In this document: positions 13,801 through 31,800 of the stretch, in pieces | Position numbering within the stretch: position 1 is the stretch's first letter | Layout of the letters: each line of letters starts with the position of its first letter | IMG/VR virus record: IMGVR_UViG_3300029309_000001 | Location: 32,001-96,000 of that record | Source of the DNA: a virus | Reading direction: 5' to 3' (one strand) | Length of the DNA: 64,000 nucleotides | Translations under genes and position numbers: made by a program | The notes under the pieces: model-generated | What the model saw: the letters and a program-made list of their open reading frames with translations, nothing else | Told to the model about the DNA's origin: nothing | The model's database searches: none

Positions 13801-16800
13801 TTCAGCAATTCTTTCAGCTACTAAATTCATTGCACCAGGATTAGTAATATTTTCAATAGCTCTAAAGTATTGTTGAGACCTTCCTTGTAAAAATTTATAG
13901 TCTACTATATCTTTTAATACTTCTTCTAAACTTTCTGATGTAATAAATTCTCCTTTTTGTTCTGCTAAGAAATTTAAATAAGCCATAAAGCTTGGTTTTA
14001 ATTTTCCTATCTTTCTTCTATCAAAAGTACCAACCCTTTTACTAGGACTAATTTTTGCTTTAAATCTTTTACCACCAATTTCTATAATGTTATCTCCTTG
14101 CACATCTGAACCTACTTCTTCATATTCTACTTCAGCACCTAATATAATATCAGTACCATCCTTATTAGTAGGAACAAAATTTTCTGGACTAGTTATAACA
14201 TCAAGGTAATTTTTTAATAATTTTAATTTTTCTTTTTTTGTTTCAATTAATTCATTTTGTTCTGCTGTTGTTGCTTCTACTGCTATTTCAGACTCTAACA
14301 TTTCTATTTCTGTCTTAAGAGCTTTAAGATCTAAAAGAACACTGATGTCTGAAGAGTTCATATTACTTATAGCAGAATCGTTTGATAATCTTTGAAATAT
14401 ACTATTGTTTCTTTCTAATGCTCTTTTAAATGTTTCTTCAGTATACATCATAAGTTTTGTAGAATGATCCCAAGCTATTTGTCTAAGAGCTTCTTCATTA
14501 TATTCTTTACTACCTTGTGTATATTGTGATGCATCAAACGGATTAGGATATTTATCTTTTACAAGAGTATATGCATTTTCATATATATCTATTTTATTAT
14601 TAAACTTATCTATTCTTTCTCTTAGCTTACCATTTTTTACTTCATTTTTAAATTCTGGAAATGCAGCTTTTAATTCTTTATCAGACATTTTTAACCAATC
14701 AGTAAGTAAACCTTTAAATTCAGTATTTGTTCCAGTTTCAAATAAATAATGTAATTGAGAAAAATAAGCTTGATCTTTGTCATCCATAAAAGATAACATA
14801 TCTGAAGCATATGAAGATTCTAATAATCTTTGATTTAATTGTTTTTGTTCTGTTGCATTTAATCTTGTTTTACCAAATAATCTCATTGGATCTTCTGCAA
14901 GATTATTAAAAGCATCAATTGCTTTTTCTAAGTAAGCTTCTTTATTTTTTTTGTATTCTTGATATTTTGCTTGTGTTTCTTGACTCCCATAATTACCTTT
15001 TGTCCATTGATATAGTCTAGGTAAATATTCTGTAAATGTTCTTTGTACAGGTTGCACTAACCCGCCCATTAAAAATCCAGACATAAATACTTCAAATCCT
15101 TGTGGGCTTATTTGTGCTTTAATTGCATCATTTAAACTGGCATCAAATAAAGTACTTGTTACTTGTGATGGATCTAAAAATAAACCAGTATAATAATCTT
15201 CTGCTGTTTTAGCAATTACTTCTTGAGATATTTCTTGAAAACCTTCTGCAAAATTAGCACCTGTATATCTTAATGCAAAAGCACCTGCAGCACCAAGACC
15301 TCCTTTAATACCTCTGTTTTTTAATCTTTGTAAAAAAGTTGCTCCTCCATCATATGCAATTCTTCCTCCAAGATCACCCGCTTCTTTTGCAGCTCTTGAT
15401 TGAGCTGGTCCTACTTTACTATTAGCAAATATTCTTTTACCCATACCACGTTGATGTCTTGCTAATAATCTTCCTAATCCACCTGGCATACCTCTAAGTA
15501 TTGTACCTAATACAATTCTATTTGACATATATATTAATGGTGCATTTGCTGTTACAGTAGCACTAGATGCAGCAAGAGCTTTTTGTTGAATATCTTCTAA
15601 TTTTTCCATAGGTGGTTTTTCACCATTAACTCTTACATAATCATGATAAAGTTTATCTATCATTTCATTGTATACTATACCTCCTTCTAATTTAGATTCT
15701 GCTATAGCAAGATTTATTTCTCTAAAGTCTCTATAAAAACCACCAAATGTATTATTAATACTTTTAACATTATGTAAACCACGCAATGTACCTTTAGTAG
15801 TATTAAGAGTTCTAAGGGCATGCATAGTATTAGGAGCTAGAAAATTTAAAGCACCTCTTCCAGTAACACTAAAAAACTGTCTTGCATTTTCTATTTGTTT
15901 AAGATCTTGCATAAGTTGTGCACCTGCACGTATTCTACTTCCTCCTGGTACATTAAAAAAACTTTGTTTTAACGCATCTCTGTATCTACCACCAAAACCT
16001 GTAAATGCTTTTCCAAGTCTACCTACATTAAACGCAGTTCTTGATGCTGCTGCTGGAGCCGCACCTCCTCCTGAAAGTGCTGTAACACCTGCTAATACTA
16101 TTTCTTCTGCAGCAATATTTGCAATAATACCAAATGTATATCCTGAGTTTAATAAAAATCTATTTGTAAATCCTCCTAAACCTTTTTTAGAAGAATTACC
16201 TATACGCATAGCATCAACAAAAGCTTGACCTCCATCTGTATCAGCACCTGTATAATTACCACTCATCCAATCTCCTATAGCATCATATGTAGATGTAAAA
16301 CCTGTTTGAAAAGTATTCCACATCTGTTTTCTAGCTCTTTGATTCTCATCCCAAAATGTAGCTTTAGAATTATATATTTCTTCATTATTCCTATAAGGAT
16401 GAAATCCTAATTGATCATATAAATTACTAGCATAAAATCTATCAAAATTTGTTTCTCTAATCCCCCACTCCATATCTGGTCTATAACCTGGAGCAGATGC
16501 ATTTTTATTTGGAGTAGTCATTGCATCATAAAATCCTTGTTGTAAGAATTTTGCTTTACCATCTTTTGTAGTTAAATCTGCTGGTGTATTTTGTTCATAA
16601 GGATTATATGTTTGAGTTGCTAATCCTGGTTGTGGCATTCTAATATTATTTAAACCAGTAATAGGTGCTACACTATTAATAGGAATAGAAGCCTGTTTTA
16701 GCATTGATTCAAAAATAGGATCAGGACGCATTAAAGCAGAAAGATCACCTGGAGTATTAGGTTGTGTATATACATCTACCACATCTTCAAAATTAATATC

Positions 16801-16935
16801 AGATACAGCAGGTACATTATTTTCCATGCCAGTACTCACAAGAGATTGAGAAGCAGGCATTTGATTATTAACAGGTGATTCAGGACCTGACGGAAGGTTT
16901 ATACCTTCTTGTGTAGTTTCATTTATTTCTGCCAT
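1879..16935 (-). CDS. Giant virion RNA polymerase polyprotein (crAss-like two-barrel vRNAP) with internal zincin domain and hydrophobic N-terminal region
   Basis: 5018 aa. GIRIPSQDKHS...GADFDIDKLY (DFDID at 5263-5277) is the DxDxD catalytic loop type of crAss-like/phi14:2 gp66 vRNAPs. Zincin KYHEAFH (10384-10398) has a downstream EEYLADKF. Gly/Ala hydrophobic helices lie in the first ~650 aa. Confidence 0.9.
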   Translation of the reverse strand: MAEINETTQEGINLPSGPESPVNNQMPASQSLVSTGMENNVPAVSDINFEDVVDVYTQPNTPGDLSALMRPDPIFESMLKQASIPINSVAPITGLNNIRMPQPGLATQTYNPYEQNTPADLTTKDGKAKFLQQGFYDAMTTPNKNASAPGYRPDMEWGIRETNFDRFYASNLYDQLGFHPYRNNEEIYNSKATFWDENQRARKQMWNTFQTGFTSTYDAIGDWMSGNYTGADTDGGQAFVDAMRIGNSSKKGLGGFTNRFLLNSGYTFGIIANIAAEEIVLAGVTALSGGGAAPAAASRTAFNVGRLGKAFTGFGGRYRDALKQSFFNVPGGSRIRAGAQLMQDLKQIENARQFFSVTGRGALNFLAPNTMHALRTLNTTKGTLRGLHNVKSINNTFGGFYRDFREINLAIAESKLEGGIVYNEMIDKLYHDYVRVNGEKPPMEKLEDIQQKALAASSATVTANAPLIYMSNRIVLGTILRGMPGGLGRLLARHQRGMGKRIFANSKVGPAQSRAAKEAGDLGGRIAYDGGATFLQRLKNRGIKGGLGAAGAFALRYTGANFAEGFQEISQEVIAKTAEDYYTGLFLDPSQVTSTLFDASLNDAIKAQISPQGFEVFMSGFLMGGLVQPVQRTFTEYLPRLYQWTKGNYGSQETQAKYQEYKKNKEAYLEKAIDAFNNLAEDPMRLFGKTRLNATEQKQLNQRLLESSYASDMLSFMDDKDQAYFSQLHYLFETGTNTEFKGLLTDWLKMSDKELKAAFPEFKNEVKNGKLRERIDKFNNKIDIYENAYTLVKDKYPNPFDASQYTQGSKEYNEEALRQIAWDHSTKLMMYTEETFKRALERNNSIFQRLSNDSAISNMNSSDISVLLDLKALKTEIEMLESEIAVEATTAEQNELIETKKEKLKLLKNYLDVITSPENFVPTNKDGTDIILGAEVEYEEVGSDVQGDNIIEIGGKRFKAKISPSKRVGTFDRRKIGKLKPSFMAYLNFLAEQKGEFITSESLEEVLKDIVDYKFLQGRSQQYFRAIENITNPGAMNLVAERIAERLKALYDTNQARVEKLVKKHVSDLEKNELINQLAGQGVYPDAEQVVLFFKEGIIPTIFHSEAGQVTPTDNREKWDTIQNLIKTWQKTDASESTVEAGDALNEDEITQNDQFDELARSVETPTTITEETNAVLISKWKNYVKNSTGQKGKILSWEEWQNSKEAKQIKEVRNELLNYYNTNLTADQRNEKSFDAWLFENKRSPEVYSIINSKGGTYTDYVITNADAVSEENLQDAKRAGDELISSEQGVNIMKKLVSGQSQDDDSFYYELVGNDLKTNLYEQYKSVDPNGKILRDNYLTEAEAIAAQKFIVGLLPDNSTFTFQGQDLHFKQILLDNNDNQFIVITTPTSFAKGGKLYLRPLETANDRKTSFQVDDIGLYRPLDTTSLKATTKEQNILKLRQSEPIKMYAFRQDNESAQDAEVRLSDRLKELTPEQLNDLKLKVSRNANFESFKETPGGALPELGTTEFKNPKLRIGGEELTVAVMNGEEILGFLQGPTGAVLLDNTLKNVVNPLNLTEDQVDEYFEIYNTTKTQTRTKAEQLQIIKNNYASSILLNDKLKELLGGETEVVVNVNNIKGLNLRVSPGKMMYATKDNAATFSELVKNTIDDKGNFWILDNRSDGKGGVITNITDDELYNKTAAIAEAASEQTGYNPAYTLSRYVAVTRLDNGTFTFVELKADQLTAEEQNDMVLKILNTQDETIQENINDADEVVSDTRNFAFNEQLKDEFYIFGKSGEFIDIEVTARGDIQVIYRSTKRKDKNGKPLKQTFTINENDVKGVKENTNPFNAFVQAINNKIKFKEASTDVKLKLKLNKDNFRKSIPKEATIQDLSNTLTNFQKPLRSNIRLEAVIADSAQINNVINSSVLPEGLTKDVQDAINDTDQVMLNAEMDSPELTPEYMRELFKNDYQNVEEATITLIARKLAKGENLSNAERTIYQNKKNPDIRESINLLKLTYQSGVIEEGASLDVDSTSATTSVEKSESKKTYEKLEELEQQREDYADKIFNDAFNNVVPDRSKATPEQIREANKAAQEAEDNDFTLKDYDRQIQDLKKKLAPKTVDQIRFGEEHIEKIDTFISWAKTNLPEFIQIQDIQDLSARLKGNGKTAGMFVLELNSLANNIEGNIYVGAQTPFKYHEAFHGVFRMLLSEAEIKKYLAIAKKEKRVQLRSEGKTLSQALNELKSSHSIYNNLTREQLEERLYEEYLADKFEEFKINAKSTKTNSEVKSLFNRIIEWIKAVIKNFTKNELTTLFENIDAGKYKTASVQNNRFTSEMVENGTTSAAPKVIPIDSYPYSYVDPFTGQEIVSLANTYMTANDQRKMIATIASLYRSYIERGDLLSLSKKEILDKAISDYIKLLNPRRDFYLSEQNGLAYKSIKRKLKSYYNSLKDNRDIIAENVSQYLSTFDNTFNLEQEAFEDHENLDETNVRRVDEYGKTANQIGGYTSLPQMLREFIATTVLEEQDLFGNKETLDGIPIVTTVDYNFAYNGILKALANKTTDLQMLQALATFSSTNVHTAAVVNNIFKEIGINDPSELLDLETLPAVANPNFLQKVIKGFNQFKVDYMMNHKDAETGVVYIYAANKKDDGNMQLDQWSEHFEQVYPQLLSNAGNKKAVDFLNLFRSKLVNPKERSRQKLDEEAKNASKNLYDLLGIQINAETIKYSMLSNKPIRKKWEDAIVELGIAAGADPISAEDITEIRNSISRGENLFLDNQTNIPENEIQEQNTAEELPESTGVRSRLRKLANTNSFFDESVGATVFRDSKGNFIYAHQMPTFHLVKVAEMNAKDWAQTKIKENTFFNKNYLLNNDKFLALVGEGKLKVTRFIGSKEGQLDENEFGTVVENRGLSINQKAGVSFGDSSSAEFAAVVINSYVEKYNRTNQEVPLNDYFNNETGKDDKYIEAPIDLKVMSDASTNDFVALPVEKFVEQDDAGDLKLTDKALNALVYNLLQSEYNRVKKELDPNTAETDTIELFNTSKIKKGVEVGHRGKRFVRSKGFITKRKSKIKALVDIQAPKMSNQTANDIVNNKQKIILRSGKAQAKINLPAGEQASVLLPYKVDNETKYANVVVKNRGLVSVSNIDPLAYIDQLGDAVSKKPIAGKKKQNTAKIDNTTYYFQRLEDAKFFNGLNLYAYEFITADTAEEANIETGVEEVQTTEGTEQQVEFFESDNFIEETLINAAKEGLNFDQAVERIGEDKLKDIIEERMLVDFFDFRRLLTNTKALDKISVEIKEGLGTMVRPQKGKRGKSFYQVTKKGREAMKLFNLKENDLDYNLLQIYMHQFINARSMNDVLLGDHARLFTSFTDESKRAKMQNAAGPNAASALTAPSLGITHTFNSNDSISLFTYHDPQSINKFAGTTTDETDAFMVGTVKAFRYMFFGIGRLSIEQANLLDKIQTGEPIGVDEMWGNVALGTEGYKKLNALINSKKFVYGDGQTYLKMSFFVLTPELTSYKDRFGQWQPLPQMEELHNLRMKMENFEKGKETVALAIPTSGSKMMKKNVISADEMYSNKSIEELQLEYGDRKIDTGLNPKFMRLQVVNPSNKIEIVDPRQMKQLVLSEQSDNVEVVINGKTTKLSEVREAYNKSVSAQTILRFKNRRNLVFDMGTALDEIGKSKDLGKTTPNLRSFLRYALAGLESSQAKTQMLEFFSFDEAGNPKYDLNNPITIEKFQQLFLAYFSKGILAGKQHGVSLALASSYGSKVMRVVKKLDENGQPLETEIIRMDAYKKNPSKYKPVDKFVNDKFVDLKIGDVILQELQHNVYDPKTKTYYSEFMMAPHHREVQKFIKPGDTIPQVVAEALGIRIPSQDKHSAISLRLVDFLPVYYGSTAMFPKELIEISGADFDIDKLYTALKEFYYKKGQFQEYGKGITEKDRYVDYIRYVISQANKKGSPINEAIVNWSTTDSPFLDAEEIEMMQDNMARETANQITLNVNAFNKAYDVRVINYIIQLNDQITDEQIVKLYNKNEDLYGALQSLGLPVTLKEYKDYVAKNGEPYEAAINNDILDQRIALVANEGVVKPIDNREIGYGNEPANLEPLYEIRDLLQAEFPEIADFANPEDVDPDSLLGLVETWASIKTGEGAIGAVVRPNVVLSMLGVNNIKIRNEALGPTGIVRFNRRTFDTFATPYTLDGKPKDKATRTQYAISALITMATDNAKERLADVLGINRSSLSIVASWTSLGVPLETSILILKNPVIKLGYDLALNKSKPTDPGIVSILKKRQRFLQLNYEINTQPVTDQVLRAAIKNDWVDPTQPLTQGFGKNITGQTPEEYSDKDASIEYAINQQIINGKRISDYVGYLGSLVDLLSGFGQSMESLDSKALDFKKLGLDLNNNDFKNLTDQNYMSITEGLDDSLTDGVPVPFDARPIIKGNDFRATYYKIFKEFTEDLIPAVFITRTKPFQRIKDTVLANMVNNSMIIDPKRKLQIEKDILSYLTIKAYRQFLMNTPNGIQKLGSLQNGMIYDDIGGENTLTIEEVVSSIRNYFASKGQENYFIDKFVYLDLASNENNKAGLNRLKGNNWTKMSDTKAVDLQASFAEIYSIPALREHAYNLMHYLLVKDGMQFDRNTFLSAVPAFMFDQVLRAISTGHKMFKSNTASDTNLVFGMSQEELNNDFTQGYLKANKNGYLIPTVRRITKDTSNAAHIDSDGNLQLNIFNGVSSFINKKGQKVVKGKKFKLQRKGASIFVNTKSNEYKKLIANASYLSSIGIKFNRVEDQGRVYLEMILPLYLRNEYQDQFGSTYVNYFELNQVYREKRFSQTGDILNMLEGEENIVKGFQATYTPVELVGSNQNTAVAFVNGEVPTHDALKKKYKSDAVDNLIAGLDLKDLEEQLAGLDLSNIQDLYDQAVNTGENVQSTNKGITIDGKSLENTDLKKESDVTDVNIDQAPQEIQDQQLAATSMLLNMLNAKQNDKSSKSDTEIKKIRDWWADPATNRYEALNQTKRSNLEGLLEEFNNFDGTAERFIEIINNCK

Positions 16936-20320: not shown

Positions 20321-23300
20321 TTACCACCATCCTCCATTCCTTCTTTCTGCTAGTGCTGCTCTTAATTCACTACCATATTTAGCTTCAGTACCACAATTAG
20401 TACCTATCTCATCAGCCTTTGGAGTTACTCCATCAGGACAACAGCCATATTGTGTACTTCCACAACCTCCTGTTATTTCATCTGGTTTATTATTATTATT
20501 TACATTTCTATTATTATTTACATTTCTATTATCAACATTTATATTATTTCCTTGATAACCAGGAATGGTTTGGTTACCTTTAGGTTGATTTTGAGATTTA
20601 AACATATCATTAACAACTAAACGTGCATTATTCATACAAGCAATTCTTTCTGCTTCAGTACTTATATTACCACATCTTTGTTCAATATATTGATTTTCTA
20701 AAGCTATTCTTTTATCCATTTGTGATTGTGGATCTACTACATTATTTGCAAAGAAATCTTTAGGGTTTGTAATTTGTATATCTCCACCAAAACCTGGACG
20801 TACATTATAATTAGGAGTCATAGTATTTAAATTATAAGTATTAGATCTATTAGTTTCAGCATTAGCACGTGCATCTGCTATTTGTATTCTAAGTTGATTT
20901 TTAGCATTATCATAATTTTGATCTACCGTATTAACTTCATCCATATACTTTTTTAATGCATCTTGATTTAATACATCTACATTTGATGCTACTCCTGCAT
21001 TAAATTGTTGAGCTTGATTATAAATATCTACATTATCATTTTGAACTTTATCTAATGCTCCTGCTATTTGTTGACCTGCTGTTCCTTGTATTTTAGAAAG
21101 TACAGATGCTAATCCTTGACCACTAGTCATTTGCATAGCCATATCTCCAGCAATTTGAGCTTGTTCTGCTATTGCAGCAATTTCTCTTGTAGGATCTTTA
21201 TAAGCTGGATCCATAAAGTTACCTGTAAAAGATTGTCTACTTGGATAATATTTATTAAGATCTACATCAGATAATGCATCTAACTTCATTATATCTTGTT
21301 TCCAATATTCATTTGGTATAGGATCTGGCATTTTAAATTCTCCTTTTTCTATACATTGACAAACATCAGTATCATATCTACCACCTTTTGTTTCACAATC
21401 TACTTTAGCTTTTGCTTGATCAGGTTTTACTTGACCGTTTGCATCAAGATAACATGTTTCAACATTTCTTACTTTCTTTTCTCCTGGTGTATTATTTAAT
21501 TGCATTATTTGACTATTAAATGTATCACCATATTTACCATCTAAAGCAGACCATCTATCTTCTCCCATTAAACCTGATCCACCTTTATCACTTCCAAAAG
21601 CTTCTAAATTAACATTACCTAATAAATTTGACCAACTATCATCTCCATCAGCAGACATTTTTTCAGCATGTTTTTTTAATCCACCTAAACTACTAAATGT
21701 AGCTTGTTTATTTAACACCATATTCATAAGTTCATCTTTATCTGTAGGTAATGGTTCAAAGCCAGCATCAGGATATTTTTTCATTATTTCTTCATAGACT
21801 AATCTATACATACCATTAGGATCTCCATCGCTAAAACCTCCACCTCTTCTTGGCCTATCCCATGCATCATGTTGTTTAATATCATTACCAGTTACTGTTT
21901 GACCATTAGGTAAAGTAATTGTTATACCATCTAATGCTCCTGCTTCATGCATTAAATACTTAAACTTTTGATCAAGCATAAACATTTCTTCATATTCTTC
22001 TTGAGTCATTTCAGGTATTGCTTGAAGATTAGAATATTTATCACGTGCTTTTAAATAAGATTCATATCCAAATTTATTTACTTTGTCCCAATCTTCAGAA
22101 TTATATAAATCTAACATTTGATTATATCTATCCATACCATAAATTTTTTCTCCTCCTTCATCAAATGTTTGTAACTCTTCATAATCTACATATCTATTTT
22201 CAAAATCTTCTCCTCCATATAAAAATTCATTTAATTTATTATTATATAAACCTGCAGGAATCATATTACGTGAATCTGGTGAAGCTGCATTATATAATCC
22301 AGCAGCTACCATACCACCTTTTTGTGCATAGTCTGCTTGCGCATCTTCTTTATATCTTCCATCATACATAGGATCAGGTTTACCTTGTGATTTTTTAACT
22401 AATTGTTCTGCCAATGTAACTAATGATCCTTGATTAATTCCTTTGTTTATATCATTACCATAACTTATTTTTGGATACTTACTTGTAAAATCTTGTTGAT
22501 TAAAAGGTACCATATCTGATACTTCTTGTAATCTATCTGAAGGTAATTTTGAATTTACTTGCATACTTTCAGGAGATTCAAATTGAGCTTTATGCAATCC
22601 TCCACCAAGTTTAAAACCAGGTCCATATAGACTAGGAGTAACTGTTTGTCTATATATCATAGGAGGTGGGGGATTAAATTCACCTGTTGATGGATTATAA
22701 TTAACACCAAATAATTTATTATCAATAGGAGGTTGATACATACTATCTCTATTAATCACTCTTATTTGATTTGCTTCATTTAATGCTTGTTTAGTATCTT
22801 CTATTTCTTTTTGATAAGCATTTAACATACCAGCAACTTCTCCTCTATTTTGAGCTTTAGGTAATGATCCACCATACATTGCCATCATTTGTTGTGGTGC
22901 CATCATACCTTGTGGTGGCATTCCTCCTCCTTGTGGTGGAGCTTGTGGCATAGGTGGCATTCCTCCTGCCATAGGTGGTCCTTGTGATGGAGGACCTCCT
23001 TGGCCACCTGTAAAGTTTTGTAATGATAATATTTGTTTTTGTTCTTCAGGTGGTAACTGATCTATCATTTGCATCATAGCTTGTTCTTCATTAAGTTTAT
23101 TTACTTTTTGAACAAACTGCATTGGATCTATTTTTTTAGACATTAAAAATGGATAAGCTGCTAAAGGCACACCATCTTCAAATTTCTTTTTACTTTCTGA
23201 TACAAATGCTAATTCAGATAATTTCATTTTATTTTTTTCTAACATTAACTCTGCACTTCTTGTAGTTATATCATCTACAAATTCATCATTTAAAGCTGAA

Positions 23301-23694: not shown

Positions 23695-26600
23695 TTATAT
23701 AATTTCTATGTCTGCTCCTGCAGCTAATAATTCATAATACATATCTGTATCAATACTTACTGTTTTTTCTTTTTGTTCACCACCATCTTTAAAGAAGAAT
23801 CCTAAACCTCCTGAATACTCCCAATTACTTGTTGAAGGATTATAAGTAACACCTGCATTTAATAATCCATATCTTGCTTCTGCTCCTATTTTTAATCCGT
23901 CATTGCTTTTATAATCTGCAAATAAATCTAATTGACCTTGAGGAACATAATCATGTTTATCTTTATACATAAATCCAAGACCAGATTTATAAATTGTTTG
24001 AGGAACTGGTGTTTTAAATTGTAAACCTGCTCTTCCACCATAATAAGGACTAACCATTTCTTGATCATTAAAGTCAATACCACCATATCCTTCTAGCATT
24101 ATACCAGCAGGTCCTGAAGTAGGTAACCCATAAAAATCTTGATCAAGTCTTAATCTAGCTCCTATGTCACCTTTAGCTGTCAGTTTAGTAAAAGGATTTC
24201 CTTCATTATCCATTTCTGTAGTTTCAAAAGGGCTAAAGTTAGTATAAACACCTCTTTTAAATCTACCACCTCCTGCATCTCTGCAACTACCACCCCAACA
24301 ATTTACCATATCTGCTCCAAAAAATAAATTTAACGGATGCTCACCACTTTGATATTCAACACCAAATCTTGGATTTGTTAATCTTGTTCCTCTAAAACCA
24401 TATTGAGCATTAGGTAATTCACTACCATATTGACTAAAACCATCTTGTCTTGAAATTACTTTACTATCTGTAAACATAAGTCCTGTGTTTTCATCTTCTT
24501 CTCCTCTAGATAATGTATCAGCTGCCATTACATTGTATGCATCATCTGAAGATCTAGTAGCTAAATTATAAGCTTGTTCTTTTCCTTCATTTATTTGATC
24601 AAATATTTTATTACCAATACCTGCTGCTTCTTTTAAAAACTTTGCACCTTTTTCAAAACCTTGAACTACTTTACTATCTCTAACATAGTTAAGTTTATTT
24701 CTCATTCTTTCTCCAAAAGTATCACCCCATCTATCTCTTCTGTCTTGTCTTCTTTGTTTTCTTAAAGCTTTTTCTTCTTCTTTTGCTGCTTGCATATCTT
24801 CATAAGATTCAAAACCTGCTTCTATAGCTTTATCTTCTCTTCTTTTATCTCTACGTACACCTCTAAGTTGTCTTCTACTTAAAGTATTACCATCTCCTTC
24901 AAATGCAAAATCATCAGTAACATCAAACTCTGGTGTAACATTTGCTTGATCAACAAACATATCTTGTTCTGTATTAAATACATCACCATAGGATCTATTG
25001 ATAGAACCTTCTTTTGGTTTAAATGTATTCATATCTATATCTCTTCTTCTAACATCATATGTATTAGCTGCAGATTTTTTCATTCCTTGATTAACTGCAT
25101 TAGCTGTAAACATATCACCTACATTACGGTTTATTGTACCAGTCTCATCTGAAAATGCATCACCTACTACATTAAATTGATCTGAATCAGGAGTGTTAAA
25201 TCCTTGATTTTCTTCTGTTGCATCTACCCATTGACCTCCTTGCCATACATCACCATATGAACTAATAGCTCCTTCTTTAGGCATACCAGCTTCATAATCA
25301 AATTGTTCTGGATTTACCATATACATTGCTGCTGCATCTTGTGCACCATTTTGTGCTTTATATAATGATCCACCAGTTTGTTTAAAATTACTAAATGCAT
25401 TATAATTTATACTAGGTGTAGTGGTTAATCTTTGTGGTGCATATAATGGATTTACAATTGCACTTGAAAAATCTTTATTTCTATAGTTTTTTAACATATC
25501 TAATTGTGTTGTTTGTTTGCTAAAAGGATTAACATTAAATAATGGTGTTTTAAAATTATCTGCTTGATTTAAACGAGTATTAATTAAATTAACACCTTTT
25601 TGATTTAATGCAGGAAAAGTTTTATTAAGTGTTTTTAATTGATTAAAGTTTTTAGGTAATACATTAACAAGACCTGTGTTACCTACACCACTTAACTCAA
25701 GAGCACCAAGTGCTAAATTACCAAAACCTTCACCAGTTCTACCTTCAGAAAAATCTGTATAAGCTTCAGGTAATGTATTTCTTAAAGCTTCTTGTGACCA
25801 ATATGCATTATTTAATTGACCAAATGTTACTGGTGCTCCTATAGTTGAACTACCTGGTACAGTTACACGTGCAAGTTTATTTGCAAGACCAAGACCTCCT
25901 CTAACTACACCTACACCACCAACTAAAGCAGGAATGTAACCCATTAAACTATTCATTTCATAATCAACTGGACCTTGATCAACAAACATTGGGTTTAATA
26001 AATTTTCGTTATCACCTATACTTAAAAACTCATTGCCTGTATTATAACCTATAGTAGGTCCACCATAACCTCCTTTTGATCCTTTAAAATATGGATTAAG
26101 ACTAGTTAAAACTGCATCTTCATAATTGTCTGGTGTTATTGTTTGATAATCTGATTTATAATTAGCTACAATTTGATTCCTAAAATCTTCATAAGACATA
26201 GGTTCTCCTTCTTTAAGAACTCCATCATTTTGATTTAATATAGGTTTAGCTTTTACAATAGTTCCACCACTTAAATCACTATTATTAATTCTTTTAATAT
26301 TACCATCTGCTGTCCATTGTTCTCCTGAAGCTAAGTTAGGATAATTTACACCAGGTGTACCAATTTGAGGTTTATAATCTCTTACTAATTCTTCATAGTC
26401 TTTAGCTATTATATTTTCATATAATGAAGATCTATTAGCATCATAAAAAGTATTTTCTAAATTTAAATTATTTTCATCACCCATTTCAGCATCTTTTCCA
26501 AAATTATATATGCTAGTTAAAGGTTCTCCATTTACAGTAAGTTTGCTTACATCTTGTAAATTTAAATTATATTGATTAGCAAAATTTATAACATCTTTTA

Positions 26601-28767
26601 AGTTAGAAAAATTTCCTGTTCTTACTTCTTTTTGTTCTACAGTTTCATTTCTATATGGATATACTTGTCCTTCATTATCAACAGTCCAAAATACATTTGG
26701 TGTTGTTTCATACTGTAAAAATGGATCTCTTGATAAATTCCATTCTTGTGCTTGTTTATTTAAATTATATAATTGTGTTCTTCCTTCTCTTGTTGAAGGG
26801 TTAGGAAAATTTGGAAAGTCTCTTATAATGTTTGAATAAAGATTAAATTCATCAGCTTGTGGCCATGTAGATTTATCTTTAATATTTATACTTCCAGCTC
26901 TATAATTAGAATTTCTAGCATCTCCATATCCTGCTCCAAGAGCAAGTAAATCTTCTTGCATTTTTAACCACAATTCTAATTGTTGATCTGTCCAATCAGG
27001 AATTTCACTTTTATTTTGAAAATGCATTAGATCACCACCATCACGTAAAAATGAAAAAGTAGGGATAGAACCACCGTATTTTAAATCAGGATCAAATTCC
27101 ATATCATCAAGATTAGCATCTTCAGGTACACTTTCATTATTTTTTTCTTGTGATGTAGGTTCATTACATTTACAATTTGCTGCATCCCAATCTCCAGGTG
27201 GTGTTAGCTGTGCACATTTTTCCTGTAACTCAAAACAATCATTTGCAGTTTGTTGAGAACTTTTTTCATAAGTTATGTTAGTAGGATTTTCTGCATCAAA
27301 AGGAATATACTTATATTTTTTTTGTCCTCTTTCATCAACACCATCAAATACATAAGAACCTTGTATGCCTGTATTATCTTCATTATGAACAAGCATAACA
27401 GCATCAGGTACATATTCTGTTTCAATCATATCACCTAATAGCTTATCTCCTTGATAAGTTATATTACCATCCATATCCATACTAGATATTTGATATAAAT
27501 CAGGATACGCAGCAGTTCTATTGTTAACATATTGATTATACTCATTCATTCTTTTCTCTTCGTATGTTATGAGTTTATCTGGTTGTGTTGGATCAAAGAA
27601 TCTAGTTTCATCAAATGGATTTGTTATTTTAAATTGTTGATAATTTTCTTTACCCCATCTATTATTACCTGCACTTGGAAATGCAAGCTTTGCCATTTGA
27701 TTTATTTCTTTTTTAGAGGCATCAGGATTTTGTTCTCTTAAAACCTTTTTAAAATTTCTAAATTCTTTTTTAGTTATTTTATTTGGATCAACATCAAAGT
27801 TTTGAAAATCTTTAATTCCACTTTGAAATAAATTTACTATATCACTTAATATGTTAGTATCTTCTCCTGCATTATACATCATAAAAGGTTTAGTATCTAC
27901 TTTATTAGATCTATCACGTCTTCTTTTACCACGTTTAGTTTGCCAATCTGCAAATTTATTTAATATTTGATTTTCTTGATTATTTTTTGCATCAAATATA
28001 TCTGTATTATTATCTAATCCTTCACATACTCCTGTTAAAGAATTATAATTTCCACCTTTTGCAGCACACTCATCTGCTTTTGCAACCTCTGACTCAACTT
28101 CATTTATTATATCTTCTTCACTTTTATTGTTATCTTCAGCTCCTGGATAATTAGTTTCTGCATCTTCCATTCCTTCAACATCATCATTATCTCCATCATC
28201 TTGGAATTTTTTTAAAGATCCTCCATATTCAAATGTAGGCATTTGTTGTTGAGGTATTATAGCTTGTTGAGGTTGCATAGATTGTTCTGGTGCTTGTTGT
28301 TGCATAACCATTTCTTCTTGTGGTGCAACAGCTGGTTCATTTAAACCAGGCATTTGTAAACCTTCTTGTATTTGTTCTACAGTTTCTTTTGATTCTTCAT
28401 AATCAGAAACACTTTGATTTTGTTTACTATAAGAACTGTCATTATTTTTTAATGGTCCCCCTTTTTCATAACTATCACAAACATTTTGTTCAGTGCATTT
28501 AAAATCATTACTCCAGCAATATCCAATATTACCTGACTTATCATTTATACACTTTTTCATTCTATTTGATATGTCAAAAAATATACAAATACCACATTTA
28601 TCTTCTGAACTTGCTTTACCATAATTAAATCTAGAAATAGCTCTTTCTCTATTATCTAAATTTAAATCTTGATCAATAGTAGCATCAGGACATGGCGTAA
28701 CTTGTTGAGTATCACCACCTTCTTGATAAACTTCTAAAGTTTGTATGTTAGGGTATTTTTTTGCCAT
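23695..28767 (-). CDS. Modular virion cargo protein: N-terminal Cys cluster, GG-delimited modules, C-terminal beta-barrel-like module
   Basis: 1690 aa. Motifs YQEGG, EYGGSLKKFQ, KYGGSI, RDGGDL, QTGGSLYKAQ, QYGSELPNAQ and FKDGG. The last module has alternating beta-strands ending YSGGLGFFF. Confidence 0.6.
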   Translation of the reverse strand: MAKKYPNIQTLEVYQEGGDTQQVTPCPDATIDQDLNLDNRERAISRFNYGKASSEDKCGICIFFDISNRMKKCINDKSGNIGYCWSNDFKCTEQNVCDSYEKGGPLKNNDSSYSKQNQSVSDYEESKETVEQIQEGLQMPGLNEPAVAPQEEMVMQQQAPEQSMQPQQAIIPQQQMPTFEYGGSLKKFQDDGDNDDVEGMEDAETNYPGAEDNNKSEEDIINEVESEVAKADECAAKGGNYNSLTGVCEGLDNNTDIFDAKNNQENQILNKFADWQTKRGKRRRDRSNKVDTKPFMMYNAGEDTNILSDIVNLFQSGIKDFQNFDVDPNKITKKEFRNFKKVLREQNPDASKKEINQMAKLAFPSAGNNRWGKENYQQFKITNPFDETRFFDPTQPDKLITYEEKRMNEYNQYVNNRTAAYPDLYQISSMDMDGNITYQGDKLLGDMIETEYVPDAVMLVHNEDNTGIQGSYVFDGVDERGQKKYKYIPFDAENPTNITYEKSSQQTANDCFELQEKCAQLTPPGDWDAANCKCNEPTSQEKNNESVPEDANLDDMEFDPDLKYGGSIPTFSFLRDGGDLMHFQNKSEIPDWTDQQLELWLKMQEDLLALGAGYGDARNSNYRAGSINIKDKSTWPQADEFNLYSNIIRDFPNFPNPSTREGRTQLYNLNKQAQEWNLSRDPFLQYETTPNVFWTVDNEGQVYPYRNETVEQKEVRTGNFSNLKDVINFANQYNLNLQDVSKLTVNGEPLTSIYNFGKDAEMGDENNLNLENTFYDANRSSLYENIIAKDYEELVRDYKPQIGTPGVNYPNLASGEQWTADGNIKRINNSDLSGGTIVKAKPILNQNDGVLKEGEPMSYEDFRNQIVANYKSDYQTITPDNYEDAVLTSLNPYFKGSKGGYGGPTIGYNTGNEFLSIGDNENLLNPMFVDQGPVDYEMNSLMGYIPALVGGVGVVRGGLGLANKLARVTVPGSSTIGAPVTFGQLNNAYWSQEALRNTLPEAYTDFSEGRTGEGFGNLALGALELSGVGNTGLVNVLPKNFNQLKTLNKTFPALNQKGVNLINTRLNQADNFKTPLFNVNPFSKQTTQLDMLKNYRNKDFSSAIVNPLYAPQRLTTTPSINYNAFSNFKQTGGSLYKAQNGAQDAAAMYMVNPEQFDYEAGMPKEGAISSYGDVWQGGQWVDATEENQGFNTPDSDQFNVVGDAFSDETGTINRNVGDMFTANAVNQGMKKSAANTYDVRRRDIDMNTFKPKEGSINRSYGDVFNTEQDMFVDQANVTPEFDVTDDFAFEGDGNTLSRRQLRGVRRDKRREDKAIEAGFESYEDMQAAKEEEKALRKQRRQDRRDRWGDTFGERMRNKLNYVRDSKVVQGFEKGAKFLKEAAGIGNKIFDQINEGKEQAYNLATRSSDDAYNVMAADTLSRGEEDENTGLMFTDSKVISRQDGFSQYGSELPNAQYGFRGTRLTNPRFGVEYQSGEHPLNLFFGADMVNCWGGSCRDAGGGRFKRGVYTNFSPFETTEMDNEGNPFTKLTAKGDIGARLRLDQDFYGLPTSGPAGIMLEGYGGIDFNDQEMVSPYYGGRAGLQFKTPVPQTIYKSGLGFMYKDKHDYVPQGQLDLFADYKSNDGLKIGAEARYGLLNAGVTYNPSTSNWEYSGGLGFFFKDGGEQKEKTVSIDTDMYYELLAAGADIEII

Positions 28768-28846: not shown

Positions 28847-31800
28847 TTATATCATACCTAAAGACTTTAAATGTTTAGTTCCTGCAGGTGTAAGTTTATC
28901 TCCATTTTCATATTTTTTAATAAGTCTATCTGTTACTTTATCAACTTCACCTCCCATTTGCTTTTTAGTTATTCCTTCATTAAATTTTTCTATATATTCT
29001 TGAGGAGTTTTATTAGCTTGTCCTGCATTAACTCCATATTTATCTGGAAATACAGATTCTAAACTATTACCATCTCTAAGTACATAACCTAAATATTCAC
29101 GTGTTCCTTGTCTTCCTAAAAAGTTTACTAATGCTGCAACTTCTGTTGTAGTATATGGAAAACTAGGTATTTGTTTGCTATAAATTTTATATAAATCTAT
29201 ACCACTTTCTCTTAGACCTTTTACACCTTCTAACTTACCTCTATATCTATTTTCAAAATATTTATTCTGTGCTTCTATATCATTAGCAAAATCTTGTCTA
29301 CTTCCATCATACATTGTAGAAATTTCACTAAACCTTTGTCCATATAAACCTGTAGCAGTTGATTCTGGATTAATCATTAGTTCACCATTAAGACTTTCTG
29401 CATAAGCAACTCCTTGTTTTAATTTTTCAAAATCAACCCAATTTGCATCTAATTCACTTGGTGGTATTAATTCTTTAGTATCTGGATGATAATATATTCT
29501 TCCATATATATCAAATGGTTTTCCTACAATACTTTCTCCTTCAATATTAAAACCTAAACCTGTTGGTATATCAAAATCATATTCATCATAATAAGCATAA
29601 TAAGGAAGCTCTCTTTCATCATCCATACCTCTTGATATTTGATAATTACTAAGATTAAAACCTCCTGCTGCAGAATCATTTATTTGCCATTTATCTTTTG
29701 ATGCATCTTTTGTAATACCCCTTTCTATTATGTCATCCATAATATCATCAACATTATTAAAAGAATAATAAACAGACTTATCATCTTCTACTCCTAATGT
29801 AGGTTTAAATTTAGATTTAGAAACTGTATTATGTTTTTGATCAAAACCTAAATACATACCCCATAAATCTTCTGAAGCATTTTTAATATATTCTCCAGCA
29901 TTAGGATTATCTTTAAATCTAGGATGATTTTGAAAATCATCAAATGATGTTTCTACACCATCCCACATAAAAGGTTGTTTTTCTCCATAAAGCATTTCTA
30001 CCATTGCTTGATCCATATTATAACCTATAGGTGTTACAGATTTATATAATCTATTTGCTAACCATCCAGGATTATTTTGACCTTGCATTTGAAACTTAGG
30101 TAATCTTTTATTATATTTATCTTTTATTGATCCACCTGTCTTTTTTTCTTCTAAATTATTTAACTCTAAACCTTCTAACGTAGCTGCTGTTATAGGTACA
30201 CCAGTTAACATTTTATTTAAAAGATTTGCAATAAGTTTATTATTTTGTTTAGTATCTTTTGTTTGATCTAATATTCTCATAACATATCCATCATAATCTG
30301 TACCAGGTAGTAATTTAGCATTATCAGCACGTACCTTAGAAATTAAATCTCCTGTTATATTATCATAAGCATCTGATATATATTTATTATCTAATAGATA
30401 TTGTTGTAACTCTGCAACATGAGCAGTAGGCTCTATATACAAAGTTCCTGGTGATTCAAAAGATGGTGAATTAGTTTTTTTTGGAGTAACTGTTTTTATT
30501 GGTTCGGTCATATAATCTTGAGTTTCTTTATTTCTTACTCCAAAACCTTTATCTGCATTACCCCATAGTGAATAACCATCATCAATTAACATTTGATTTT
30601 TTAATAATGCAGATGATGTAAGACCACCATCATCAACAAATTTTAAATTTGGTGAAAACCAATTAGTATTTGCAGCTCCTAATCTTTGATCAAATATTTT
30701 TGTTGCATCATCTGTTATAGGTATAGTAGTAGATCCAAAACCAAAAACATTTTTTTCAGTATTGCCAGAATTTCTTATTAATTTTCCTACATAGTCCAGT
30801 GCATGTTGATCTTCATGTCTAAAAATATTTCTTAACCAATTTTCTGGCAATGCATTTGTATTCATACTTACAAAAGGTAATATACCTTTTTCTAATTGAT
30901 TATAGTTTTCACCTGAAAAGAAATACGGACTATCATCTGGACCATATGAATTAAAATTATTTATAATAGGTATTTGTTTATATGTTGCAATAAATTTATC
31001 TACATCTGTATCACTTGCATTTGGACCTAAATAATTTTCTTTTATTCTTCTACGTCCTTCTGTAGTATTCATTCTTTCAAGAATATCATTTCTTATATTT
31101 AAATAAGATGTATTTCCTGTTAAACTTTTAGACATATCTTTAACGTCCATTGAATGACTACCTGCACCTAATACTGGTTTACCCATTTGAAGTGTACTTA
31201 TATATTCAGGATTATATATAAGACTTTTTAAATCTAATGGTTGAACCATAGAAAAATCTTCAAATAAACTTGTTGTTGGTGTTCCTACCTCTCCTGTTCC
31301 ATAAAGATCTTCAAATGCATTATAATTAACATTTCCCCTAGCTTCTCTACCTATTGCTTCATTATGTATTCTTATTAAATCATCATCTAGATCATCTTTA
31401 AAAAATGCTAAATCTTTTTTACTTTGATCAACTATATCTGTAAAAGTATTACCTGTTAAACCATGATAATTTTGAAAGTATCCTGGTTGTGCATTATAAT
31501 AATCTTTTCCAACATTTGATATATTTTTTGATGTGCCACCTAACCAAGTTGGTAAATAACTACGAAGATAATCTTTTGTATCTTTTACTGTTTGTATTGT
31601 TTTTTTTATTTTTGCAGGATTAAACAAATCTTTATATTGTGCTTTTGGTAATGAACCACCAAGTTTATATAAATCTTTTCCTTTAATAGGTATTATTCCT
31701 GGAGATTCTATATCTAAATTATATTTAGATAAATAACTATCAGGCACTTTAACTCTTATATATTGATTTCCTTTTTGATCAGTAATAATTTCATAAGGAT

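What the first reader, a model, noticed from the sequence alone, without database searches (positions are those of the whole stretch)
23791..24400. Outer-membrane beta-barrel-like module with a beta-signal-type end inside a virion cargo protein
Seen: the ~200 aa between the QYGSELPNAQ and KDGG motifs is a run of amphipathic Gly/aromatic strands (RFGVEYQ, LNLFFGAD, GDIGARLRLD, IMLEGYGGIDF, YYGGRAGLQF, LDLFADY, LKIGAEARY, LNAGVTYN, WEYSGGLGFFF). Established: OMPs end in a beta-signal strand with a terminal aromatic that BamA recognises. The ORF has no signal peptide. Inference: a capsid-delivered barrel, perhaps freed by cleavage at the flanking GG motifs, could form an OM conduit for DNA/vRNAP, engage BAM, or block superinfection.
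Basis: partly seen in the sequence, partly recalled or inferred. Interest (0 to 1): 0.75.

Follow-up and report, generated by a model that had tools for sequence, protein, structure and literature searches.

The report
Porin-like barrel cassette in phage cargo protein
A giant protein that a marine crAss-like phage probably carries inside its particle contains a 200-residue module predicted to fold like a bacterial outer-membrane barrel, which hints at an undescribed way for a phage to anchor itself in the host envelope.

Summary
Window 23791-24402 (minus strand) encodes residues 1456-1659 of a 1690-aa ORF. This Gly- and aromatic-rich stretch (16% Gly) has an alternating hydrophobic/polar pattern well above shuffles (z 3.5).

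AlphaFold2 with a 10-sequence alignment gives ten long antiparallel strands (mean pLDDT 64.8, 77-91 in most strands). The best Foldseek matches in PDB are transmembrane beta-barrels. In the viral library they include phage proteins named OMP, porin or autotransporter beta-domain. The last strand, SGGLGFFF, fits the published beta-signal consensus.

No curated family matches by sequence, and I could not inspect the coordinates. Barrel closure and an outward hydrophobic belt are therefore inferred, not seen.

The module behaves as a cassette. It sits between a GxELPxAQ motif and a conserved 31-aa tail. One full-length homolog lacks it, and in that phage the neighbouring giant ORF carries a related module between two GG motifs.

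My best reading (about 0.45): an outer-membrane anchor that folds on arrival after the protein is ejected. A 10-strand monomer is too narrow to be a DNA conduit. Cleavage at the GG motifs, virion packaging and membrane insertion are all untested.

The parts
23695..28767 (-). 1690-aa ORF (P0001), the putative internal virion / ejected 'cargo' protein that carries the module
   Evidence: No Pfam, PHROG or NCBIfam family and no PDB sequence match. Full-length homologs of 1610-2232 aa come only from marine and other metagenomes.
24403..24432 (-). QYGSELPNAQ, the upstream boundary motif of the cassette
   Evidence: Conserved as Y/F-G-x-E-L-P-x-x-Q in homologs, including those without the module. 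Duplicated around an extra insertion of about 240 aa in P0005.
23791..24402 (-). Gly/aromatic beta module, residues 1456-1659 (the finding)
   Evidence: AF2 places ten strands within residues 1459-1658 (window 23794-24393).
24283..24300 (-). CWGGSC, an invariant Cys pair in the loop between predicted strands 2 and 3
   Evidence: Invariant in 10 of 10 rows of A1 and 6 of 6 rows of A4. Read by eye: the other cassette types also hold a closely spaced Cys pair.
23791..23814 (-). SGGLGFFF, the last predicted strand, beta-signal-like
   Evidence: Consensus taken from passages of PMC10945584.
23698..23790 (-). KDGG motif plus the conserved 31-aa C-terminal tail (KDGGEQKEKTVSIDTDMYYELLAAGADIEII)
   Evidence: It is the most conserved element of the family and is present in module-less homologs. 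pLDDT <50 with one short helix in the model.
24493..24897 (-). Charged, helix-prone region upstream of the module (residues 1291-1425)
   Evidence: The homologous part of P0015 was modelled as helices 38-56 and 62-143. pLDDT of 75-81 applies only to residues about 40-86; the rest of that model is below 50. Sequence.
25873..25959 (-). Gly-rich hydrophobic segment (residues 937-965)
   Evidence: Highest Kyte-Doolittle 19-aa window of the protein, 1.40. Conserved in P0019 by eye. Below the usual threshold for a TM helix (recalled value 1.6).
28201..28227 (-). YGGSLKKFQ motif copy in the same ORF. Further copies at 27052-27078 (YGGSIPTFS) and 25351-25377 (TGGSLYKAQ).
22850..22876 (-). YGGSLPKAQ motif in the neighbouring 1123-aa ORF (20321-23692)
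31637..31663 (-). LGGSLPKAQ motif in the upstream 2226-aa ORF (28847-35527)
1879..16935 (-). 5018-aa ORF with DFDID (5263-5277), a crAss-type virion RNA polymerase homolog. Context only.
   Evidence: The DFDxD motif of virion-packaged proteins comes from the abstract of bioRxiv 10.1101/2020.03.07.982082.
35527..43113 (-). 2528-aa ORF, homolog of Cellulophaga phage phi4:1 gp042, a virion structural protein by MS/MS. Context only.

Best explanation
The module is a folded domain of about 200 aa, predicted as a 10-stranded barrel of the outer-membrane-protein type. It is inserted as a cassette near the C-terminus of a giant protein that is probably packaged in the virion and ejected, in an uncultured marine crAss-like phage.

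Proposed mechanism (inferred):
1. The protein leaves the particle at least partly unfolded, as proposed for crassvirus cargo.
2. The cassette needs no ATP to fold. It folds into the host outer membrane, either spontaneously at the tail tip or with help from BAM through its beta-signal-like last strand.
3. Once inserted it acts as an anchor for the rest of the protein. With an even number of strands, both flanks emerge on the same side of the membrane.
4. The Cys pair could form a disulfide only outside the cytoplasm.

Shown: the sequence pattern, its conservation, the predicted fold class, the cassette behaviour and the genomic context.
Inferred: virion packaging of this particular protein, direction of the hydrophobic face, membrane insertion and the anchoring role.
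For: (1) Fold. AF2 on a 10-sequence alignment gives strands 33-47, 53-65, 75-93, 99-118, 129-140, 146-160, 185-194, 198-207, 210-217 and 222-232 of P0002 (add 1426 for ORF numbering). pTM is 0.58, and pLDDT per 10-residue block is 77-91 over most strands.

(2) Structural matches. In PDB the listed matches (ranks 1-50) are transmembrane beta-barrels: designed TMB10_163 (E 5.7e-5, TM normalised to target 0.59-0.64), BrkA, Hbp and EstA autotransporter domains, FapF, invasin and porins. No soluble barrel appears among them. In the viral library, several of the best-ranked matches are phage proteins named OMP beta-barrel, porin or autotransporter beta-domain, mixed with uncharacterised and unrelated proteins lower down.

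(3) Dyad amphipathicity: z 3.5 against shuffles.

(4) Face conservation. Across six non-redundant homologs, the polar face holds 20 invariant positions of 66, including R41, D60, R112, R114, D118, E133, Q157, K159, D188 and R206. The hydrophobic face holds 8 of 67. That is the pattern expected for a polar interior and a lipid-facing exterior. Hydrophobic-face residues of strands 4-10 include no charged residue, and Tyr, Trp or Phe sit at strand ends.

(5) Beta-signal. The consensus is matched just before the GG motif in 14 of 16 module-bearing sequences and in 0 of 2 module-less ones. Rows are not independent: many are close relatives or fragments. Background is 1-4 regex matches per 230 aa.

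(6) Cassette behaviour. P0019/L003 and P0021 lack the module between the two motifs. In L003 the next ORF instead carries a Gly/aromatic module of about 190 aa between RYGGSLLKRQ and QDGGSLSKKQ, ending in NIGAGLII. hhalign of that module to the type-A profile gives E 2.6e-4 over 50 columns.

(7) Context. The ORF lies between a homolog of phi4:1 gp042 and the DFDID polymerase. In phi4:1 the genes downstream of gp042 are virion proteins by MS/MS, according to the record's notes.

(8) Precedent for beta structure entering an outer membrane from outside: the CdiA FHA-2 domain assembles spontaneously into receptor-containing proteoliposomes (abstract and passages of PMC13625785).
Against: - No sequence-level link to any OMP family. 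The best is OprB at 15-15.6 bits against a cutoff of 22.9, in 1 of 6 members. PDB profile and single-sequence searches are empty.
- The model has moderate confidence (mean pLDDT 64.8) and comes from a shallow alignment. TM-scores normalised to the query are only 0.36-0.44 and rmsd is 5-7 A.
Barrel closure and the direction of the hydrophobic face were not seen, and no TM-barrel predictor was run.
- Mean hydropathy is -0.54. Strands 1 and 3 carry R/E on the 'hydrophobic' face.
- The longer, conserved connections lie on the same side as the termini. That is the reverse of the usual OMP pattern of long extracellular loops (my reading).
- The beta-signal-like strand is followed by 31 more residues.
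- The other cassette types do not show raised dyad amphipathicity (0.31-0.32). Their hhalign E-values to type A are 0.32 and 0.042. The AF2 run on one of them failed (pLDDT 35.5). Barrel nature cannot be generalised to them.
- Packaging of this protein in the virion rests on gene position only.
- The host is unknown. The relatives' hosts are diderms.
Confidence: 0.45

Rival explanations
1. A soluble, non-membrane beta-rich domain (a small barrel or sandwich) with a structural or binding role inside the capsid or tail or in the periplasm. The resemblance to OMPs would then reflect only Gly/aromatic composition and long hairpins.
For: There is no OMP family match by sequence. Overall hydropathy is negative and charged residues are abundant. 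Model confidence is moderate and the coordinates were not seen. The module is dispensable at this position in P0019 and P0021.
Against: No soluble barrel appears among the listed PDB matches, ranks 1-50. Invariant charged residues sit on the polar face while the hydrophobic face drifts among hydrophobic residues. That is the opposite of a conserved hydrophobic core under a variable surface. The hydrophobic face is rich in Ala, Gly and Leu, which would fill a 10-strand core poorly (inference).
Confidence: 0.25
2. A BAM-directed element. The conserved last strand mimics a beta-signal and pairs with BamA (or binds BamD). This could open a point of entry in the outer membrane or interfere with OMP assembly. 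The barrel would be secondary.
For: The last strand matches the consensus in 14 of 16 module-bearing sequences, across cassette types that are otherwise not alignable. L-type pyocins are reported to inhibit BAM at the cell surface, and related lectin-like proteins deliver a C-terminal peptide to BamA strand 1 (abstracts in the listing: PMC13463100 and 10.64898/2026.09.25.754295).
Against: The regex is loose, with 1-4 matches per 230 aa. The strand is not C-terminal. No host BamA was available to test. This reading overlaps the main explanation rather than excluding it.
Confidence: 0.12
3. One reading: the module forms the outer-membrane channel through which DNA and the virion polymerase pass.
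For: Podophage ejectosomes need an outer-membrane channel (T7 gp14, N4 gp52; passages of PMC8954989 and PMC13434306). This phage has no recognisable homolog of those proteins.
Against: The model is a monomeric 10-strand barrel. General knowledge of barrels of this size says the lumen is far below the 2 nm of dsDNA. No evidence of oligomerisation was sought or found. The module is missing from this protein in some relatives.
Confidence: 0.07
4. A flexible, largely unstructured Gly-rich threading region, like the translocation domains of colicins (recalled). It would pass through a host porin rather than fold.
For: The other cassette types in the same slot are Gly/Asn/Tyr-rich (13-19% Gly) without raised dyad amphipathicity, and one failed to fold in AF2.
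Against: The window's type shows 43-61% identity to the window's module across the aligned relatives, with many invariant charged and Gly positions and confident long strands.
Confidence: 0.05

Closest known systems
Podophage ejection (internal virion) proteins that form the outer-membrane part of the ejectosome: T7 gp14, N4 gp52, and the crAss001 cargo proteins gp45/gp46
   Same: Encoded without a signal peptide in the virion gene block. Presumed to be packaged, expelled unfolded through the tail and to refold in the host envelope (passages of PMC8954989, PMC13434306 and PMC10172136).
   Different: Those proteins are described as alpha-helical: the gp14 hexameric helical channel, gp52 and gp51 predicted helical, gp46-50 helical. 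This module is all-beta and OMP-like. There is no sequence similarity.
Stand-alone phage-encoded OMPs (lambda Lom; 1,603 OMPs of huge phages)
   Same: A phage gene product with a predicted 6-22-strand outer-membrane barrel. The viral structure library returns such proteins among the best matches (passages of bioRxiv 10.64898/2026.10.24.761521).
   Different: Those are separate small genes selected for having an N-terminal signal peptide. They are made in the infected cell and exported by the host Sec/BAM route. Here the barrel is residues 1456-1659 of a 1690-aa protein with no signal peptide, in the cargo gene block.
Type Va autotransporters (BrkA, Hbp, EstA beta-domains)
   Same: A large N-terminal part followed by a C-terminal barrel. 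Structural matches 3qq2, 3aeh and 3kvn at E 9e-4 to 1e-2.
   Different: Autotransporter barrels have 12 strands, a signal peptide and a linker helix in the pore (recalled). The model here has 10 strands, the ORF has no signal peptide, and TM-scores are only 0.27-0.34.
CdiA FHA-2 domain and L-type pyocins (proteins that act on or in a target cell's outer membrane from outside)
   Same: Beta structure, or a beta-signal-like peptide, delivered from outside the cell that inserts next to BamA or pairs with it (PMC13625785 passages; abstracts).
   Different: These are bacterial toxins, not phage proteins. FHA-2 is modelled as a large sheet extending from a beta-helix, not a closed small barrel. There is no sequence relation.

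Membership tests
Bacterial outer-membrane beta-barrel proteins (Pfam OMP families such as OprB PF04966) | Score above the curated threshold of a family model | tested here: not met
   OprB reaches 15.0-15.6 bits against a cutoff of 22.9, in 1 of 6 members. No other family at E <= 10. NCBIfam has none for the module. PDB by sequence or profile: none.
Bacterial outer-membrane beta-barrel proteins | Closed antiparallel meander barrel with an even number of strands | tested here: inconclusive
   AF2 gives 10 next-neighbour strands, and the best PDB matches are TM barrels. TM-score to query is 0.36-0.44.
Bacterial outer-membrane beta-barrel proteins | Outward hydrophobic belt with aromatic girdles and a polar lumen | tested here: inconclusive
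   Only indirect evidence. There is a dyad pattern, and the polar face is more conserved than the hydrophobic one (20 of 66 invariant against 8 of 67). No TM-barrel predictor was run.
Bacterial outer-membrane beta-barrel proteins | N-terminal Sec signal peptide | tested here: not met
   The N-terminus is hydrophilic, and the module starts at residue 1456. By inspection only; no predictor was run.
Bacterial outer-membrane beta-barrel proteins | Beta-signal in the last strand (zeta-x-G-x-x-[aromatic/hydrophobic]-x-[aromatic/hydrophobic]) | tested here: met
   SGGLGFFF matches, as do 14 of 16 module-bearing relatives. Consensus from PMC10945584. The strand is 31 aa from the C-terminus.
Podophage ejection / crassvirus cargo proteins | Presence in the virion and release on infection | not testable with these tools
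   Position only. The ORF lies between a homolog of MS/MS-verified phi4:1 gp042 and the DFDID polymerase.
Podophage ejection / crassvirus cargo proteins | Sequence relation to T7 gp14-16, N4 gp51/52 or crAss001 gp45/46 | tested here: not met
   No PHROG family. tblastn against 50,697 phage records found only an N-terminal Cys-rich match and nothing for the module below E 0.4.
Type Va autotransporter beta-domain | 12-strand barrel with signal peptide and passenger | tested here: not met
   The model has 10 strands. There is no signal peptide and no PF03797 hit.

The most novel reading that the evidence does not exclude
A phage carries, inside its particle, a porin-type beta-barrel with no signal peptide. 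The barrel is shot out unfolded and folds into the host outer membrane from outside, or by borrowing BAM. That would make it the first beta-barrel component of a phage ejectosome. The barrel would also be a swappable cassette, bounded by GG-x-L-P-K-A-Q-type motifs, that moves between neighbouring cargo proteins so that each phage keeps one copy.
Probability: 0.3. Interest if true: 0.85.

Novelty: new variant of a known kind. Interest (0 to 1): 0.62.

Why it matters
How crass-like and other short-tailed phages cross the outer membrane is still open. The outer-membrane parts of the ejectosomes covered in the papers I read are helical and poorly resolved.

A barrel that folds on arrival would be a simple, energy-free solution for a protein that must travel unfolded through a narrow tail. 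It would also show that OMP-type folding can be started from outside the cell.

The idea is directly testable with one 200-aa recombinant module, using refolding, heat-modifiability and bilayer assays.

The flanking motifs and the conserved tail also give handles for asking how giant cargo proteins are built, processed and loaded into capsids.

Tried and rejected
Searches that found nothing useful:
- Pfam, PHROGs and NCBIfam on the whole ORF and its neighbours: no families.
- Exhaustive phmmer of the module against 1.84 billion representatives: 13 hits at E <= 1e-3. All are the same phage family or tail-only matches, except P0020, a repetitive unrelated protein (E 2e-4). No bacterial OMP was found.
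- A second word-based search with the tail added nothing new (7 proteins).
- Pfam on the other cassette types: 0 families at E <= 10.
- Literature search for the motif strings found nothing relevant.
- No tRNA genes in the window.

Weak leads, not used as evidence:
- ESM Atlas. The nearest clusters are viral hypotheticals (0.90-0.91). Named leads are at 0.83-0.87 (BcsS, Tsx/OmpK, inverse-autotransporter beta-domain, Porin_4, and also the insect proteins Attacin_C and Gloverin).

Runs that failed or did not confirm:
- AF2 on a different cassette type (P0015 with 3 relatives) failed with mean pLDDT 35.5, so it is uninformative.
- hhalign of the type-A profile against the L009 and L006 cassettes: E 0.32 and 0.042. 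Homology is not shown.
- My impression that P0014 carries a lytic-transglycosylase-like region after the module was not confirmed. Pfam gave nothing, the PDB hits were irrelevant, and only phrog_3108 of unknown function matched.
- Cellulophaga phage phi4:1 and Leptolyngbya phage Lbo-JY46 have no such module and no GG motifs in the equivalent genes.

Checked and set aside:
- The idea that the GG motifs are DNA-level recombination sites. The copies differ at synonymous positions, so conservation appears to be at the peptide level.

Not available or not done:
- Paper supplements were not consulted.
- No complex prediction was run.
Full report
**What the window is.** The window is bases 32001-96000 of a 119,026-bp virus record judged complete. 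GC is about 29%, and nearly all large ORFs are on the minus strand.

The capsid protein (59578-61218) is distantly related to capsid proteins of crAss-like gut phages, Cellulophaga phages phi4:1/phi17:2 and Leptolyngbya phage Lbo-JY46 (PHROG major head protein).

A 5018-aa ORF (1879-16935) carries GADFDIDKLY. Its surrounding 801 aa match the 'putative RNA polymerase' of 99 crAss-like records (best E 9e-13). A DFDxD motif in a large virion-packaged protein is the hallmark given in the abstract of bioRxiv 10.1101/2020.03.07.982082.

The 2528-aa ORF (35527-43113) is a homolog of phi4:1 gp042. In phi4:1, gp042 and the genes after it are annotated as virion proteins on the basis of MS/MS.

The target ORF (23695-28767, 1690 aa) lies between these two landmarks, in a run of giant ORFs. 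Calling it a virion 'cargo' protein is therefore an inference from position, not a demonstrated fact.

**The observation.** The stretch is 16% Gly and 14.5% aromatic.

Its alternating hydrophobic/polar periodicity is 3.5 SD above 2000 shuffles, and 2 of 2000 reach it. It is the highest in the protein. It is also the only such stretch among 31 ORFs of at least 300 aa in the genome.

The N-terminus of the ORF is hydrophilic, and no 19-aa window exceeds 1.40 on the Kyte-Doolittle scale.

**Relatives.** No curated family fits, and no PDB sequence matches. The only trace is a sub-threshold OprB porin match (15-15.6 bits, cutoff 22.9), in 1 of 6 members.

An exhaustive HMMER pass over 1.84 billion representatives found 13 hits. 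A word-based search found 9. All real hits are giant proteins or fragments from metagenomes, some of them marine.

**Fold.** I ran AF2 on the last 264 aa with 10 aligned sequences (A1). It predicts ten long antiparallel strands joined to their next neighbours. pTM is 0.58, and pLDDT is 77-91 over most strands. The N-terminal flank, one long loop (162-182) and the tail are below 50.

Foldseek against PDB returns transmembrane barrels throughout the listed ranks 1-50. These include a designed 10-strand barrel (E 5.7e-5, target-normalised TM 0.59-0.64), autotransporter, FapF and invasin domains, and porins.

Against viral models, several of the best-ranked matches are phage proteins named OMP beta-barrel, porin or autotransporter beta-domain, with unrelated proteins further down the list.

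Query-normalised TM-scores are modest (0.36-0.44). I could not open the coordinates, so barrel closure and the hydrophobic girdle remain unverified.

**Which face is inside?** I split each predicted strand into its two faces and compared six non-redundant homologs.
- The polar face holds 20 invariant positions of 66, including ten charged or amide residues.
- The hydrophobic face holds 8 of 67 and drifts among Leu, Ile, Met, Phe, Trp and Ala.

Conserved buried polar networks with interchangeable lipid-facing residues are what small OMPs show. A soluble barrel would be expected to show the reverse. This is supportive but not decisive.

Points against:
- Strands 1 and 3 carry charges on the 'hydrophobic' face.
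- The longer, conserved connections (CWGGSC...GGG and DFYGLP.GP.G) lie on the same side as the termini. That is not the usual OMP loop pattern.

**Beta-signal.** The published consensus is zeta-x-G-x-x-[aromatic/hydrophobic]-x-[aromatic/hydrophobic] (passages of PMC10945584). SGGLGFFF matches it.

The consensus is matched just upstream of the GG motif in 14 of 16 module-bearing sequences. The misses are P0009 (SAGLGTFF) and P0022 (MGGLRWNL). It is matched in 0 of 2 module-less sequences.

The rows are related, and some are fragments. The regex hits 1-4 times per 230 aa, so the weight of this evidence is moderate. The match does hold in cassette types that otherwise do not align to the window's type.

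**Cassette behaviour.** The module sits between Y/F-G-x-E-L-P-x-x-Q and K/R-x-GG-E plus a 31-aa tail, which is the best-conserved part of the family.
- P0019 (1753 aa, full length; locus L003) and P0021 join the two motifs with only 14-27 residues.
- P0005 has an extra insertion of about 240 aa bracketed by two copies of the first motif.
- P0022 and P0014 carry the module followed by other C-terminal regions.
- P0010/P0017 and P0011/P0015 hold different Gly-rich modules in the same slot.
- In L003 the neighbouring giant ORF has a Gly/aromatic module of about 190 aa between RYGGSLLKRQ and QDGGSLSKKQ. It ends in NIGAGLII. Its last 50 residues align to the type-A profile (hhalign E 2.6e-4, probability 42%).

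In the five type-A metagenome loci (L002, L004, L005, L007, L008) and the window's genome, the conserved last hairpin occurs once per locus.

The motif family G-[GS]-[SE]-[LIV]...[AF]-Q occurs 7 times in three adjacent giant ORFs of the window, against 0.38 expected. The pattern was defined after seeing the copies, so this figure is post hoc. The copies differ at synonymous sites.

These motifs mark module boundaries. Whether they are cleavage sites, docking peptides or plain linkers was not testable. 'Cleav' and 'proteol' do not occur in the main text of the crAss001 structure paper (PMC10172136).

**Mechanism.** Crassvirus cargo proteins are thought to pass the tail partly unfolded (passages of PMC10172136). 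OMP barrels fold without ATP (established knowledge).

A barrel cassette is therefore a plausible fold-on-arrival anchor in the host outer membrane. An even strand number leaves both flanks on one side, which suits an insertable cassette.

The invariant Cys pair could oxidise only outside the cytoplasm (inference).

The 10-strand size argues against a DNA or polymerase conduit unless the module oligomerises, for which I have no evidence.

CdiA FHA-2 shows that beta structure can enter a target outer membrane from outside (PMC13625785). L-type pyocins show that a beta-signal-like peptide can reach BamA from the surface (abstracts listed).

**Known versus new.** In the papers I read, the outer-membrane components of the T7 and N4 ejectosomes are described as helical (PMC8954989 and PMC13434306).

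Phage-encoded OMPs described so far are separate genes chosen for having signal peptides (bioRxiv 10.64898/2026.10.24.761521).

My two literature searches listed no ejected protein with an OMP-type barrel. This is a limited search and not proof of absence. Supplements were not read.

I class the finding as a new variant of a known kind (ejection or cargo proteins). It is not a member of any OMP family by sequence.

**Limits.**
- The alignments are shallow.
- One of two AF2 runs failed.
- There are no coordinates and no TM-barrel predictor result.
- There is no cultured isolate, and the host is unknown.

Noticed in passing
window 22850-22876, 31637-31663, 28201-28227, 27052-27078, 25351-25377, 24403-24432 (all minus strand): A short peptide motif (Y/L/T-G-G-S-L-P/K/Y-K-A/F-Q, with variant YGSELPNAQ) recurs in three adjacent giant ORFs: 7 hits against 0.38 expected, with the pattern defined post hoc. 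It coincides with insertion boundaries between homologs. Its function is unknown (cleavage site, docking peptide or linker).
   Followed up: partly
window 23698-23790 (-); L011:26053-28077: The 31-aa C-terminal tail (..SIDTDMYYELLAAGADIEII) is the most conserved part of the family. A look-alike ending (..EIDLSPEEVAKLIELGYDFEVV) closes a 674-aa ORF two genes after the gp042 homolog in the cultured Leptolyngbya phage Lbo-JY46. It could be a loading or docking signal. The resemblance was read by eye only.
   Followed up: partly
L003:2026-6141 (residues about 470-665): In the phage whose tail-bearing protein lacks the module, the next giant ORF carries a Gly/aromatic cassette between two GG motifs. 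This suggests that the cassette moves between cargo proteins.
   Followed up: partly
window 28450-28692 (-), residues 26-106 of the ORF: A Cys-rich N-terminal region (CGICIFFD...C...C...C...C). tblastn E 1e-6 to an ORF annotated 'high potential iron-sulfur protein' in Actinomycetia phage DSL-LC01. It is conserved in homolog P0019. A metal or Fe-S site in a packaged protein would be unusual.
   Followed up: no
window 1879-16935 (-): A 5018-aa ORF with DFDID at 5263-5277. It looks like a crAss-type virion RNA polymerase embedded in a protein more than twice the size I recall for phi14:2 gp66 (about 2,180 aa; that figure is recalled).
   Followed up: partly
window 25873-25959 (-), residues 937-965: A conserved Gly-rich hydrophobic segment (YIPALVGGVGVVRGGLGLA; Kyte-Doolittle 19-aa window 1.40). 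It is below the usual TM-helix threshold but is a candidate membrane-interacting stretch.
   Followed up: no
P0005 (homolog), alignment A1 columns shown: An extra insertion of about 240 aa lies exactly between two copies of the G-S-E-L-P-R/N-A-Q motif, upstream of the barrel module.
   Followed up: no
P0014 residues 231-357; P0022 residues about 815-922: In two relatives the module is followed by other domains instead of the tail. P0014 matches phrog_3108 (unknown function, E 1.1e-5). P0022 ends in a GPSHDQGG-containing region with no family match.
   Followed up: partly
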